Below are positions 899 through 19,520 of a DNA stretch of 59,692 nucleotides, in pieces. The DNA comes from Eubacteriales bacterium (GTDB taxonomy: Bacteria > Bacillota > Clostridia > Oscillospirales > QAKW01). Location: NCBI GenBank assembly GCA_045545315.1, contig JAZQAR010000023.1:1-59692 (forward strand). The letters are read 5' to 3'. Below the pieces are notes generated by a model. That model had not been told where the DNA came from. It made no database searches and saw only the letters and a program-made list of their open reading frames with translations. Each line of letters starts with the position of its first letter. Positions within the stretch are counted from its first letter, which is position 1. The translations under genes and the position numbers were made by a program.

Positions 899-3800
899 TT
901 ATGTGCGGGGTTTTACACAGGTATAAACCATATTATGGTCGCTTCGATCTGTCACGTTCACGTTCAACCCGGCGCCGGTTGCTTCATACACCGGATAAGT
1001 CAAATCTTTCCCCACAATAATATGGTCAATATCCAACCTTGATCCGGTTCCTTGCGGGTAAGTGTAAACGATCGCATCATATTTTTCACCGCCATTCAGG
1101 CTGGTGAATTTGGCGGTATCGATCACGTTACGGATATACTGCCCTTTGGCGTTCATATCCCCGCAAATGATGGGATAATCATCATTTGCAGCCCGATCCA
1201 GGATCTCCTTCAGCTGCGTGGTCGCCGCCGTTTTATTGGTATCGGCATCGGGCGAGAGCGCCAGATGGGTATTATAGATCGTATAGGTCACGCCGTTCAC
1301 CGTAACCTGGAACCGGCTGTAAGTCCGCTGTTCACCACCCTTATCATTCTGGCTTCCAAAAATATTCCTGGTATACGCATCAATGGGATATTTACTTAGG
1401 ATCCCATGTCCGTAACTTATGGTCTCGTGGGCTTGGGTAAACTTATAATACGGATAACCGGTCAGTTCTGCGATCACAGCCATCTGATCTTGTGGATTTC
1501 GACTGGTATTTTTATCCACCTCCTGCAACAGAACCACGTCTGCATCAATGGCCTTGATCTCGGCGGCGATCTCTTCGTACTGAGCGCTATGGCCAAAGCA
1601 TTTAACGTTATAGCTGGCCACCTTCAAATATCCGGAGTAATCGGCGCTATACTGAACATTGACCGTATTGTTCTTAACAGTGGCAGTTCCATGCTCCAAG
1701 GATTGATAGAAGATCTCGCCCACCTTGTAGTTGGGACTATAGCCGGTGGATGCGACTCCCATTGTCAGCCCGGCTTCGGTCAGCGCCGCTTTTGCCTCAG
1801 CAACAGTCTTGCCCCGCAGGTCGGGTACCGTAGTCACATCCTCGTTTTGATGCCAGGGCAGGATCAGATCGGCATAGCAGAACCGATGAGCGGCAGTGCT
1901 ATTCTCGTAAACCCGAAAGCCCGCCGGAGCGGTGTTGTCTGCAATCGGCGTGAACCGATCGCTTATGACAATGTTGGTGGAAACCACCGACGAAGGACCT
2001 GTCAAAATATGGTCGTATTCCTTGCCGCCATTCAAAGCGACAAAGTTTTCGGGCATAACCTCCCGATACTGGTTGGGCACCATGTACGGCATCCCCACGA
2101 ATATCGGATAAGGATCTGCTTCCATCAGACCGAAGATTTCCTCCATTTGGGGGATTGCATAAGCCTCGCCCATAGTAGATGCATTTGCGGTATACACCGT
2201 TACAAAATGGCCGGCACCCAAATCCACCTTAGCCTTGATAAAGCCCCGTTTTTCCGTGGTATCCTGGTCCTTAAACAGTTTTTCAGTAATCTCCACCAAG
2301 GGATATTTACTCAAAAGAGCAATGCCGTATTCCCCGGTCGTTTGGGGCACGTTGCAGAAGAAGTGGGAATAGGGATACCCGGCGGCTTTCGCCAGATATT
2401 CGGTCTGATCCACGTATTCCCCATCCAGCATGGTCATATTCTTCTCCACCCGCTGGAGCCCCACGATATCTGCATCCATCTTCTTCAGTTCATTGATAAA
2501 GAACTCATAGTTATACGTATCGCCGATCTTGCAACGGGCGATATTCCGGTTCGCCACCTTCAAGGGGCCGGAATGTCCTTTGGATTCATCGATCTTCAGG
2601 AAGGTATAGACCGGATTATGGTCGCTGGCGCTGGTGGATTTGCCGATATCATTGACGTACAACTGGCCAAGACCGTTAATCTCCTCATAATGATCAAAGG
2701 TATCTGAGACCACGATGTGATCGATATTACAGGAAGAACGTCCCAATAGATCCTTGCCGCCGTTCAGCGGAGTAACGGTTTCCAGATTCAGGTGAGGCGC
2801 TATTTTGCCGATATTCATATTCATATCGCCGGTCAGTATTGTATACTGATCGCCTGGTAAATCAATATAAGCCTGCATAGCGCCGCTAATCTCCTGCATC
2901 TGATTATATTGATATTCTTTCGTGGTGGTGATATGGGTATTAAAGACAACAACCTCAGAGCCGTTTACGTCCAAGGTAAAGCGCCCGTATCCGCGTTTTT
3001 CGGCAGCCTGATAGGACGAATTGAACAGCACCGTCTCGGCTTCCAGAATTTCATAACGGCTGAGGATTGCGGTGCCGTAATGACCGCCATCCGTCAGGGT
3101 GTGCACATGGGTAAACTCATGATAGGGATATCCCAAAGCTTCCGCCAGAAATTGCGGCTGGTTCACCTTACCGGAGCGTGTGCAGTTTACGTCTACCTCT
3201 TGCAGGCATACGATATCTGCATCCAGGTCTTTCAGAATCTTAATCACTGCGGCAGTGCGGTCCGTTTCATTGCTGGAATTACTATTTCCGCTGAGGTCTG
3301 TCCACAGATGATGGATGTTATAGCTGACCACCTTGACATGATCGGAATAATCCTTGCAATGGGTCAGGGTCACGTAGCCCTTATCCTTGATCAATTCGGC
3401 ACCGGCAGGGACGGATTGGAGATATACGCCAACCTTATTGGCCTTATATTTTTCGGAAAAGACCACCTTGACTCCTGCCTCCTTGGCGGCGGCTTCAGCC
3501 TCGGCCTTGCTCATACCAACAAAATTAGGAATCTTCACAGTTTCGGGGGCGTCGATCCCCTCCATCAGCAGGTCGCTATAAGCATAATAACGGTTATTAT
3601 GGGTAACGGAGCTCTGCCGCCAGCCCTTGGCGGTAGTGCCGTCCGTCAAGGGAGTGAAATTATCGGTGGTGATGATGTTATAGTTATTCACATTCGCGGC
3701 GGATCCGTCGTTCAAGGCAATATACCCTTCGGGGATCGTATCCGCATAGGTGGAAGGCGCTCCGGAAAAGATACCGGCCAAAATGGCGCGCTCATCCTTT

Positions 3801-19520: not shown

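What the first reader, a model, noticed from the sequence alone, without database searches (positions are those of the whole stretch)
899..19520. Intact and catalytically dead EEP domains are interleaved in a regular pattern
I read the six EEP motifs domain by domain.

Intact domains keep the metal-binding Glu and the catalytic Asp/His: SYN, (L/F/I)QE(V/I), N(T/M)H(L/I), GD(M/L/T)N, ID(H/N)I, SDHN.

The domains between them have systematic substitutions:
- 1736-aa protein, domain 2: SYD, FQAVD, YNVMF, GNLN, CWHR.
- 1736-aa protein, domain 3: SYD, IQGYD, GNLS, NQHR.
- 2903-aa protein, domain 3: NRN, LQRVE, YTANA, GMPY, AAHR.
- 2903-aa protein, domain 1: ARVD, YSAWF, GIFS, HNNR.
- 1275-aa protein, domain 1 is intermediate: LQEID and GDLN are kept, but it has YVTSLD and SHHN.

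Every protein ends with an intact domain.

The dead domains keep their length and hydrophobic core and share an H-R/N signature. They therefore look like conserved pseudo-enzymes, perhaps substrate-binding or spacer modules, rather than decaying copies.
Basis: seen in the sequence. Interest (0 to 1): 0.7.

Follow-up and report, generated by a model that had tools for sequence, protein, structure and literature searches.

The report
Surface proteins alternating live and dead phosphoesterase domains
Three giant secreted proteins of an uncultured animal-gut Clostridia bacterium carry ten copies of one phosphoesterase (EEP) domain, and half of the copies have lost their catalytic residues yet are kept by natural selection, so they are conserved pseudo-enzyme modules rather than decaying junk.

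Summary
Three minus-strand genes (899-9661, 9785-13666, 14310-19520) encode secreted proteins with ten EEP-fold units.

- **Intact units:** five keep all nine canonical catalytic residues.
- **Dead units:** four keep only 1-3 of the nine.
- **Intermediate unit (B_d1):** keeps five.

Profile alignments to solved EEP structures (B. cereus sphingomyelinase 2ddr, 4ruw) confirm the motif register.

The "regular pattern" is overstated. The orders are D-I-D-I, m-I and I-D-D-I (I intact, D dead, m intermediate). A complete homologue in another genome is I-D-I-D and ends with a dead unit.

The pseudo-enzyme reading is supported:
- Orthologues in three related genomes carry the same dead signatures.
- dN/dS of dead units is 0.24 (95% 0.17-0.32) against 0.13 for intact units.
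- One dead unit (A_d3) is the best-conserved EEP unit of its protein.
- AlphaFold models a dead unit at pLDDT 94.8, and it matches EEP structures.
- None of 119 single-domain homologues is dead.
- Catalytic residues were lost at least three times independently.

The substrate of the intact units is unknown, and what the dead units do (binding module or spacer) is untested.

I rate this a new variant of a known kind (tandem enzyme plus pseudo-enzyme), of moderate interest.

The parts
899..9661 (-). Gene A: 2920-aa ORF (probable start M18 at nt 9610, giving 2903 aa). Order: signal peptide, ~1000 aa with no family match, Big_2, six ~67-aa repeats, PASTA x3, EEP d1 (dead), PASTA, EEP d2 (intact), EEP d3 (dead), PASTA, EEP d4 (intact)
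3542..4294 (-). A_d1, dead EEP unit (AANI / YARVD / YSAWF / GIFS / NYNI / NNRY; 1 of 9 catalytic residues)
   Evidence: The orthologue in L003 has the same signature. dN/dS 0.25
2582..3364 (-). A_d2, intact EEP unit (9 of 9), fused directly to A_d3
1847..2581 (-). A_d3, dead EEP unit (NRNI / LQRVE / YTANA / GMPY / STNI / AAHR; 2 of 9). It is the best-conserved EEP unit of protein A
   Evidence: 72.7% identity to the orthologue, dN/dS 0.13. It folds in the tandem model
902..1660 (-). A_d4, intact C-terminal EEP unit (9 of 9)
9785..13666 (-). Gene B: 1293-aa ORF (probable start M19 at nt 13612, giving 1275 aa). Order: signal peptide, SLH, Pro/Thr linker, PASTA x7, EEP d1 (intermediate), PASTA, EEP d2 (intact)
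10733..11491 (-). B_d1, partly degenerate EEP unit (TYVV / LQEID / YVTSL / GDLN / LDNI / SHHN; 5 of 9). It derives recently from an intact-type unit
   Evidence: Related strains keep the motifs; 13 synonymous against 5 non-synonymous codon changes
9788..10546 (-). B_d2, intact C-terminal EEP unit (9 of 9)
14310..19520 (-). Gene C: 1736 aa. Order: signal peptide, SLH, Pro/Thr linker, PASTA x2, EEP d1 (intact), PASTA x3, EEP d2 (dead), PASTA, EEP d3 (dead), PASTA, EEP d4 (intact)
17571..18359 (-). C_d1, intact EEP unit (9 of 9)
16233..16982 (-). C_d2, dead EEP unit (SYDV / FQAVD / YNVMF / GNLN / VSNI / CWHR; 3 of 9)
   Evidence: AF2 pLDDT 94.8 and EEP-fold matches. dN/dS 0.21
15282..16031 (-). 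C_d3, dead EEP unit (SYDI / IQGYD / YNVKL / GNLS / SSNI / NQHR; 2 of 9)
14313..15071 (-). C_d4, intact C-terminal EEP unit (9 of 9)
16977..17540 (-). Example of the PASTA spacers (three PASTA domains between C_d1 and C_d2). Every EEP unit except A_d3 is directly preceded by a PASTA domain. There are 20 PASTA domains in the three proteins
18876..19442 (-). SLH cell-wall anchoring region of C. The matching region of B is at about 12977-13534 and is 86.6% identical

Best explanation
**Shown**
- A, B and C are secreted proteins. Two of them (B, C) have an SLH wall anchor.
- Each is built as a chain of [PASTA]n-[EEP] modules.
- Five EEP units have a complete Mg2+-phosphoesterase active site.
- Five have lost most or part of it (metal-binding Glu, the Asp/Asn of GDxN, the His of NxH, the Asp of SDH) but keep the EEP fold.
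- The dead units are inherited as dead in orthologues and are under purifying selection.
- Dead units arose at least three separate times (A-type clade, C-type clade, B_d1). They then spread by duplication of dead units or of intact-dead pairs.
- They are found only in proteins that also carry at least one intact unit.

**Inferred**
- The proteins are long wall-tethered stalks. The PASTA domains act as rigid spacers.
- The intact units are hydrolytic heads acting on a phosphate-ester substrate outside the cell. Candidates are extracellular nucleic acid, a phospho-glycan or teichoic-type polymer, or a phospholipid head group. The substrate is not resolved.
- The dead units act as non-catalytic modules that bind or position the same kind of substrate next to the active heads. 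This would resemble a carbohydrate-binding module next to a glycosidase, or the OB-fold next to the EEP nuclease domain of streptococcal wall-anchored nucleases.
- The directly fused, conserved A_d2-A_d3 pair may work as one unit.

The confidence given is for the whole statement including the inferred binding role. For the shown part alone (conserved, selected, non-catalytic EEP-fold modules) I would put it at about 0.9.
For: - **Architecture:**
- **Motif table and register:**
- **Same dead signatures in orthologues:** P0001, P0002, L004 ORF and L003 ORF.
- **Selection:**
  - dN/dS for dead units is 0.24 [0.17-0.32], for intact units 0.13 [0.09-0.19] and for PASTA 0.23, at unsaturated dS of 0.5-0.75.
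  - A_d3 has 0.13.
  - B_d1 in related gut strains has mostly synonymous changes, no indels and unchanged motifs.
- **Fold retained:** pLDDT 94.8, pTM 0.92; Foldseek top hits are 4ruw, TDP2, 3mpr and 3g6s.
- **Dead units only alongside intact ones:**
  - 0 of 119 single-unit homologues are dead.
  - All eight close multi-unit proteins have at least one intact unit.
- **Independent origins:** the tree was built without motif columns (bootstrap 87 and 95), and B_d1 is nearest to intact units.
- **Hints that the old pocket is still constrained:**
  - In the C-type dead clade, 5 of 10 former active-site positions are invariant against 50 of 226 overall (p = 0.045). The replacement residues are D, N, N and S, and the motif VI His is kept.
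  - Motif windows are more conserved than the rest in d2-type units and in A_d3.
  - E108, R110 and the LNGG loop are invariant in intact and dead units alike.
- **Recurrence elsewhere:** intact-plus-dead EEP tandems and metallo-beta-lactamase-fused arrays of degenerate EEP repeats occur in unrelated surface proteins.
- **Precedents:** an EEP fold that binds but does not cut is known from EEPD1 (PMC12988330). Wall-anchored EEP nucleases with an accessory binding fold are known from SWAN (PMC4118848).
Against: - No binding or activity data exist.
- Purifying selection at dN/dS of about 0.24 equals that of the PASTA spacers. It could reflect only the need to stay folded.
- The pocket-conservation signal is weak (p = 0.045; absent for C_d3/P1_d3 and A_d1). 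Part of it reflects buried strand residues.
- All units are acidic (pI 4.3-5.4), which does not favour strong nucleic-acid binding.
- The substrate class is unresolved:
  - The nearest solved relatives are structural-genomics proteins of unknown function, followed by nocturnin, sphingomyelinases and a mannose-6-phosphatase. Classical DNases score lower.
  - All NCBIfam nuclease hits are below cut-off.
- The tandem A_d2-A_d3 model has pTM of only 0.67, so a fixed intact-dead interface is not supported.
- Only four genomes carry this family, so the comparative depth is small.
Confidence: 0.45

Rival explanations
1. Pure structural spacers. The dead units are kept only as well-folded beads that set the length and spacing of the stalk, like the PASTA domains, with no ligand binding.
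For: - dN/dS of dead units (0.24) is the same as that of the PASTA spacers (0.23).
- Former catalytic positions are not conserved across the A-type dead clade as a whole.
- A-type dead units have lost the loop between LNGG and motif V.
Against: - A 250-aa enzyme fold is an expensive spacer when 60-aa PASTA domains are used for that purpose in the same proteins.
- A_d3 is the most conserved EEP unit of protein A.
- Replacement residues in the old pocket are invariant in the C-type clade.
- Dead EEP units evolved repeatedly in unrelated multi-EEP proteins.
Confidence: 0.27
2. Partner or regulatory pseudo-domains. A dead unit packs against a neighbouring intact unit and stabilises, orients or gates it. 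This would resemble the inactive D2 domain of receptor tyrosine phosphatases or the JH2 domain of JAK kinases.
For: - The A_d2-A_d3 fusion has no PASTA between the units. It is conserved, with a similar short linker, in A, its orthologue and P0003.
- Direct intact-dead tandems of about 520 aa recur in other proteins: P0208, P0213, P0216 and P0253.
Against: - Most dead units here are separated from intact ones by one to three PASTA domains.
- C has two dead units in a row.
- The tandem model has pTM of only 0.67.
Confidence: 0.1
3. Neofunctionalised adhesin modules. The remodelled pocket now binds a different ligand (host glycan, own cell wall, another microbe), unrelated to the substrate of the intact units.
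For: - There is a conserved new residue set in the C-type pocket: D, N, N, S and H, including an N<->D swap between motifs I and IV.
- The proteins are surface-located.
Against: - Nothing identifies a ligand.
- The different dead clades have different pocket residues.
Confidence: 0.1
4. The "dead" units are still enzymes with an altered mechanism or substrate.
For: The motif VI His is kept in most dead units. C-type units keep one carboxylate (motif I Asp) and the motif III Asn.
Against: The metal-binding Glu, the GDxN Asp, the motif III His, the motif V Asp and the SDH Asp are all lost together. From established knowledge of APE1, DNase I and ExoIII, single substitutions at these positions lower activity by orders of magnitude.
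Confidence: 0.03
5. Decaying duplicates that have not yet been lost. They stay in frame only because a stop codon would remove the downstream intact unit.
For: Dead units evolve somewhat faster than intact ones in C (dN/dS 0.24 against 0.13).
Against: - dN/dS is far below 1, with a bootstrap upper limit of 0.32.
- The same substitutions are kept across genomes at 57-80% identity.
- The fold prediction is confident.
- P0002 ends in a dead unit with nothing downstream to protect, and that unit is still conserved.
Confidence: 0.02

Closest known systems
EEP (endonuclease/exonuclease/phosphatase, Pfam PF03372) superfamily. Nearest solved members are 4ruw, 3g6s and 3teb (function unknown), then nocturnin, B. 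cereus sphingomyelinase C / S. aureus beta-toxin, BT3783 mannose-6-phosphatase and TDP2
   Same: The intact units have all six EEP motifs and align full-length to these structures. A dead unit has the same fold.
   Different: - No characterised enzyme is close enough to assign a substrate.
- Known members are single-domain enzymes.
- Here ten units are strung on PASTA spacers, and half of them are inactive.
EEPD1, a metazoan EEP-fold protein that binds DNA but lacks nuclease activity (PMC12988330)
   Same: An EEP fold is retained under selection after loss of catalytic residues. The pseudo active site is proposed to hold the substrate.
   Different: - EEPD1 lost essentially one key residue (DxN to DxG) and still binds metal, whereas the units here lost 4-8 residues including the metal ligand.
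- EEPD1 is a homodimer with HhH domains inside the cell, not a tandem with active copies on a bacterial surface.
Wall-anchored streptococcal nucleases SWAN / SpnA (OB-fold plus MnuA/DNase I-like EEP domain, LPXTG anchor; PMC4118848)
   Same: A cell-wall-tethered EEP phosphodiesterase is combined with a non-catalytic accessory module. There is a weak MnuA-family hit for C_d4.
   Different: - They have one EEP domain, a sortase anchor and an OB-fold as the accessory module.
- The NCBIfam MnuA score here is 31.7 against a cut-off of 185, so membership is not met.
Tandem active/inactive catalytic domains in other superfamilies: receptor protein tyrosine phosphatases D1/D2, JAK JH1/JH2 (from general knowledge)
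   Same: A duplicated catalytic domain has one copy that has lost catalysis but is conserved and kept next to the active copy.
   Different: - The folds are unrelated and the proteins are eukaryotic signalling proteins.
- Those have a fixed 1:1 arrangement, whereas here the order and number vary (D-I-D-I, I-D-D-I, I-D-I-D, D-I-D-D-I).
PASTA repeats of PknB/Stk1 kinases and PBP2x
   Same: There are twenty PASTA domains, with their best family match to the Stk1/PknB extracellular region.
   Different: There is no kinase or transpeptidase. The PASTA domains are used as linkers between EEP units. The only other example found was P0161.

Membership tests
EEP superfamily (PF03372) | Sequence/profile match over the whole ~225-residue domain | tested here: met
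   Pfam matches 9 of the 10 units at E <= 0.01, and member 1 matches model positions 1-225. My own HMM finds all ten at E <= 4e-25.
EEP superfamily (PF03372) | Four-layer alpha/beta sandwich fold | tested here: met
   The AF2 model of dead unit C_d2 has pLDDT 94.8. Foldseek hits to 4ruw, TDP2, 3mpr and 3g6s reach E down to 5e-16, with TM about 0.7.
Catalytically competent EEP enzyme | Six motifs carrying N, E, N/H, D/N, D and D/H | tested here: met
   Met for A_d2, A_d4, B_d2, C_d1 and C_d4 (9 of 9). The register was checked against 2ddr and 4ruw.
Catalytically competent EEP enzyme | The same six motifs, in the other five units | tested here: not met
   Residues kept: A_d1 1 of 9, A_d3 2, C_d3 2, C_d2 3, B_d1 5.
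Pseudo-enzyme (conserved inactive homologue of an enzyme) | Homologous to active enzymes, lacks catalytic residues, and is maintained by purifying selection | tested here: met
Pseudo-enzyme | Lack of catalytic activity shown experimentally | not testable with these tools
   Needs purified domains and enzyme assays.
Exodeoxyribonuclease III (TIGR00633 / TIGR00195) | Score above the curated cut-off | tested here: not met
   Best score 71.8 bits against a cut-off of 99.05, with partial alignments only.
MnuA / DNase I-like membrane nuclease (NF045851) | Score above the curated cut-off | tested here: not met
   31.7 bits against a cut-off of 185.
Bacterial neutral sphingomyelinase C | Close sequence relationship and a membrane-inserting hydrophobic hairpin | tested here: inconclusive
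   Profile E is 1e-13 to 2ddr, but proteins of unknown function and nocturnin score better. The hairpin was not examined.
SLH-anchored surface protein | N-terminal signal peptide plus SLH repeats | tested here: met
   B and C have SLH at E 1e-24 and 4e-27. A has no SLH, so its anchoring is unknown.
PASTA domain | Pfam PF03793 match | tested here: met
   E values from 2e-54 to 5e-80 per protein. Twenty units were mapped.

The most novel reading that the evidence does not exclude
EEP catalytic domains have been converted repeatedly and independently into a class of non-catalytic binding modules for phosphate-ester substrates on Gram-positive cell surfaces. This would be an EEP-derived counterpart of carbohydrate-binding modules.

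The window proteins show the conversion at three stages:
- intact units;
- the half-degenerate B_d1;
- fully dead units.

The same logic would explain the intact-dead tandems seen elsewhere, and the giant metallo-beta-lactamase proteins that carry 5-7 degenerate EEP repeats.
Probability: 0.25. Interest if true: 0.65.

Novelty: new variant of a known kind. Interest (0 to 1): 0.45.

Why it matters
- Pseudo-enzyme domains next to active copies are well known in eukaryotic signalling. They are little described in bacterial surface proteins, and I found no paper describing them for the EEP fold in bacteria.
- The three genes offer a natural series (intact, half-degenerate, dead) inside one locus. 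This makes it directly testable what an EEP fold does once catalysis is gone.
- The PASTA-EEP-SLH architecture is undescribed. It is confined to a few uncultured animal-gut Eubacteriales, so it may mark a specialised way of harvesting phosphate esters (eDNA, phospho-glycans or lipids) in the gut.
- The practical value is modest until the substrate is known.

Tried and rejected
1. **phmmer of one intact unit against PDB sequences** found nothing useful. Profiles were needed.
2. **Whole-protein homology search with C** was swamped by SLH proteins. Only P0001-P0004 were relevant.
3. **Word-indexed search with dead unit C_d2** returned only three distant single-domain proteins. It missed P0001 and P0002, which are known to be 57% identical, so it says nothing about rarity.
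4. **The metagenome-contig scan** gave one distant partial hit only.
5. **dN/dS against P0001, P0002 and P0003** had dS of 0.9-2.4 or undefined, that is near or at saturation. The closer orthologue on L004 replaced them.
6. **Population-level pN/pS for gene C from gut-metagenome contigs** could not be computed, because only 40 of 544 variant places are printed. It worked for the shorter B_d1.
7. **A single origin of all dead units.** They share RG[YFW]xRA and TDxxxPxG features. I rejected a single origin for two reasons:
   - the two dead clades are no closer to each other (28.7% identity) than to intact units (28-33%);
   - the tree does not join them.
8. **B_d1 as a recombinant of intact and dead halves.** I rejected this because all three segments are nearest to intact units or equidistant.
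9. **The tandem A_d2-A_d3 model** was meant to reveal a fixed interface. A pTM of 0.67 does not allow that conclusion.
10. **NCBIfam and homologue names** gave no function beyond "EEP family protein".
11. **The third gene on L003** is unrelated to A, B or C.
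Full report
**What is there**

The region holds three large ORFs on the minus strand:
- A: 899-9661, 2920 aa, probable start at M18 giving 2903 aa.
- B: 9785-13666, 1293 aa, probable start at M19 giving 1275 aa.
- C: 14310-19520, 1736 aa.

All three begin with a signal-peptide-like segment. 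Pfam finds SLH repeats at the N-termini of B and C, many PASTA domains, Exo_endo_phos (EEP) domains, and a Big_2 domain in A.

An HMM built only from the three C-terminal units finds exactly ten EEP-like units, all at E <= 4e-25. A PASTA HMM maps twenty PASTA domains. Every EEP unit except A_d3 is directly preceded by a PASTA domain.

The architectures are:

| Protein | Order of modules |
|---|---|
| A | about 1000 aa without family match, Big_2, six ~67-aa repeats, PASTA x3, d1, PASTA, d2, d3, PASTA, d4 |
| B | SLH, PASTA x7, d1, PASTA, d2 |
| C | SLH, PASTA x2, d1, PASTA x3, d2, PASTA, d3, PASTA, d4 |

**Checking the observation**

I scored nine canonical positions: N of motif I, E of II, N and H of III, D and N of IV, D of V, and D and H of VI.

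| Unit | Canonical residues kept |
|---|---|
| A_d2, A_d4, B_d2, C_d1, C_d4 | 9 |
| B_d1 | 5 |
| C_d2 | 3 |
| C_d3, A_d3 | 2 |
| A_d1 | 1 |

This is the His of YGHG, which is Asn or Ile in every dead unit.

The register is right:
- The profile of A1 aligns motifs I-IV with the NHN / LNE / THL / GDMN segments of B. cereus sphingomyelinase 2ddr. These are N16, E53, H151, D195 and N197 by my knowledge of that enzyme.
- A deeper profile (A3) aligns full-length to 4ruw, including RIDY (motif V) and SDH (motif VI).
- Pfam's model runs 1-225 and ends on the SDH His.

The excess of dead units is not chance. Among the best 147 representatives of the family, 119 are single-unit proteins and none has fewer than 6 of 9 canonical residues. 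The lower counts there come from truncated alignments. Fisher p is 9e-7 for the window and 2e-13 for the close family.

Two parts of the observation do not hold up:
- The orders D-I-D-I, m-I and I-D-D-I are not one regular pattern.
- "Always ends intact" is 3 of 3 in the window, which is about a 1-in-8 chance. It fails in P0002, a complete gene with another gene downstream, whose order is I-D-I-D.

**Relatives**

The family with this architecture is rare. I found it in three other assemblies, all uncultured Eubacteriales/Clostridia MAGs:
- GCA_964383835.1 (P0001, I-D-D-I).
- GCA_017531725.1 (P0002, I-D-I-D).
- GCA_045659565.1.

The last is the closest relative. It holds:
- an orthologue of C on L004 (80-86% identity, I-D-D-I);
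- an orthologue of A on L003 (D-I-D-I);
- an extra paralogue, P0003 (D-I-D-D-I);
- four tandem single-unit intact EEP lipoprotein genes on L006.

Near-identical DNA occurs in animal gut metagenomes, including goat, bovine and faecal samples.

In every orthologue the dead units carry the same substitutions as in the window:
- d2-type: SYD / LQAVD / YN[VT]M / GN[LI]N / VSNI / C[WYH]HR.
- A_d3-type: [NT]RNI / LQRVE / YT[AT]NA / GMPY / ST[NE]I / AAHR.
- A_d1-type: GIF[SG] / NYN[IL] / NNR.

These are shown.

**Selection**

Nei-Gojobori estimates were made against the close orthologues, where dS is 0.5-0.75 for C and therefore not saturated. Brackets give the codon-bootstrap 95% interval.

| Protein | Region | dN/dS |
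|---|---|---|
| C | intact d1+d4 | 0.13 [0.09-0.19] |
| C | dead d2+d3 | 0.24 [0.17-0.32] |
| C | PASTA | 0.23 |
| A | intact | 0.18 |
| A | dead d1 | 0.25 |
| A | dead d3 | 0.13 |

- For A, dS is about 1.3-1.7, so those estimates are less reliable.
- A_d3 is the best-conserved EEP unit of its protein, at 72.7% identity.
- B_d1 has no orthologue in the assemblies. Contigs of two gut metagenomes at about 96-97% identity show 13 synonymous against 5 non-synonymous, and 10 against 7, changed codons. They have no indels and no change in the degenerate motifs.

The units are therefore maintained, not decaying. The terminal dead unit of P0002, which has nothing downstream to protect, is also conserved.

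**Fold**

- AlphaFold2 with a 68-sequence alignment models C_d2 at mean pLDDT 94.8 and pTM 0.92.
- Foldseek places it among EEP structures: 4ruw, TDP2, 3mpr, 3g6s, nSMase2, nocturnin and Bc-SMase. E values reach 5e-16 and TM is about 0.7.
- The fused A_d2-A_d3 pair folds in both halves (pLDDT 84.7). Its pTM of 0.67 does not fix their mutual orientation.

**Origin**

I built a neighbour-joining tree of 44 units with the motif columns removed. It shows:
- two well-supported dead clades: A-type (A_d1, A_d3 and their relatives; bootstrap 87) and C-type (C_d2, C_d3 and relatives; bootstrap 95);
- B_d1 standing apart from both.

B_d1 is nearest to intact C_d1-type units, at 44-46% identity. The two dead clades are no closer to each other than to intact units.

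Catalysis was therefore lost at least three times. Dead units then multiplied, by d2 giving rise to d3, and in P0002 by duplication of a whole intact-dead pair.

Further independent cases appear in unrelated proteins of the representative library:
- dead-then-intact: P0158, P0159, P0162, P0166, P0188;
- intact-then-dead: P0208, P0213, P0216, P0253, P0193, P0170;
- about ten giant proteins with a metallo-beta-lactamase domain and 5-7 very degenerate EEP-like repeats.

**What it does**

The intact units are complete Mg2+-type phosphoesterase domains. The substrate cannot be assigned:
- Source names are all generic.
- NCBIfam hits to ExoIII and MnuA nuclease are far below cut-off.
- With a deep profile, the best solved relatives are proteins of unknown function (4ruw, 3g6s, 3teb, 3l1w). 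Next come nocturnin, sphingomyelinases, a mannose-6-phosphatase and TDP2. ExoIII, APE1 and DNase gamma score lower.
- Single-unit relatives are lipoproteins with long acidic tethers, so the family works at the cell surface.

My best reading is as follows:
- SLH anchors the protein to the wall.
- The PASTA domains act as rigid spacers.
- The intact EEP heads hydrolyse an extracellular phosphate ester.
- The dead EEP units act as non-catalytic modules that bind or position that substrate.

Evidence pointing towards binding rather than pure spacing is suggestive only:
- In the C-type clade, 5 of 10 former active-site positions are invariant against 22% of all columns (p = 0.045).
- Motif windows are more conserved than the rest in d2-type units and in A_d3.
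- E108, R110 and the LNGG loop are invariant in intact and dead units. By my recollection of the DNase I sequence, R110 lines up with the phosphate-contacting R111. This was not tested.
- A 250-aa fold is an unlikely spacer when 60-aa PASTA domains are available in the same proteins.

Evidence against binding:
- The dN/dS of the dead units equals that of the PASTA spacers.
- All units are acidic.
- A-type dead units have lost a loop next to the pocket.

**Comparison with what is known**

- A conserved, inactive EEP fold that holds DNA is documented for metazoan EEPD1 (PMC12988330).
- Wall-anchored EEP nucleases with a non-catalytic accessory fold are known in streptococci (SWAN; PMC4118848).
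- Tandem active/inactive catalytic domains are classical in receptor tyrosine phosphatases and JAK kinases (general knowledge).
- I found no paper describing PASTA-EEP arrays, SLH-anchored EEP proteins or bacterial tandem intact/dead EEP domains. The library lacks most subscription-journal papers, so this is not proof of absence.

**Verdict**

- The motif observation is correct.
- The "regular pattern" is not.
- The pseudo-enzyme interpretation is supported by conservation, selection and fold.
- The function of the dead modules and the substrate of the live ones remain open.

This is a new variant of a known kind, of moderate interest.

Noticed in passing
window 43458-49271 (-), within the low-GC stretch 40001-44000: A 1937-aa RHS-repeat protein (15 RHS repeats plus DUF6531), typical of polymorphic toxins. 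Its 3' end and the downstream region lie where GC falls to 0.40-0.41, against about 0.53 elsewhere.
   Followed up: no
window 25933-27758 (+): An IS200-like Y1 transposase ORF (25933-26682) is followed directly by a 358-aa ORF with no Pfam match. Both lie in a low-GC stretch (0.44). This is possibly an IS200/IS605-type element.
   Followed up: no
window 4892-9520 (-), protein A aa ~50-1590: The first ~1000 aa of protein A, and six tandem ~67-aa repeats (aa 1261-1590; YYF/NGPV-rich, resembling wall-binding repeats), match no Pfam family even at E <= 1. Protein A has no SLH domain, so these repeats may be its anchor.
   Followed up: partly
window 12977-13534 and 18876-19442 (-): The SLH N-termini of B and C are 86.6% identical (dS 0.54), although their EEP parts are only 30-45% identical. 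This suggests recent duplication or gene conversion of the anchor region.
   Followed up: partly
L006:1530-5944 (GCA_045659565.1, JAZOXD010000189.1): Four tandem genes encode single-unit, fully intact EEP proteins (281-435 aa). At least two of them have a lipoprotein-type signal peptide and a long acidic linker. They may be the pool from which the multi-unit proteins were built.
   Followed up: partly
Representative-library proteins P0123, P0135, P0145, P0147, P0160, P0184, P0190, P0195, P0199, P0207: These giant proteins (1949-2840 aa) carry 4-7 very degenerate EEP-like repeats at a period of about 230 aa, and none of the repeats is intact. The two scanned with Pfam (P0135, P0160) also have a metallo-beta-lactamase domain. 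This is a separate, larger class of all-dead EEP arrays.
   Followed up: partly
Representative-library protein P0122 (1175 aa): Cohesin plus dockerin followed by four directly fused EEP units, one of them partly degenerate (LQAVD, ADFN, SVHA). These are EEP modules on a cellulosome-type scaffold.
   Followed up: no
window 19900-24875 (-): Next to gene C is a run of sugar-modifying genes on the same strand: DegT-type aminotransferase, GFO/IDH/MocA oxidoreductase, PfkB kinase and a PIG-L deacetylase. An AraC-type regulator lies at 24932-25873 on the opposite (+) strand. The homologues P0001 and P0002 also sit next to an AraC-type regulator.
   Followed up: no
PDB entries 9sf8/9sf9: A recently deposited 562-563-aa "EEP domain-containing protein" matches the family profile in its C-terminal part (E about 5e-11). 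I did not identify what it is.
   Followed up: no
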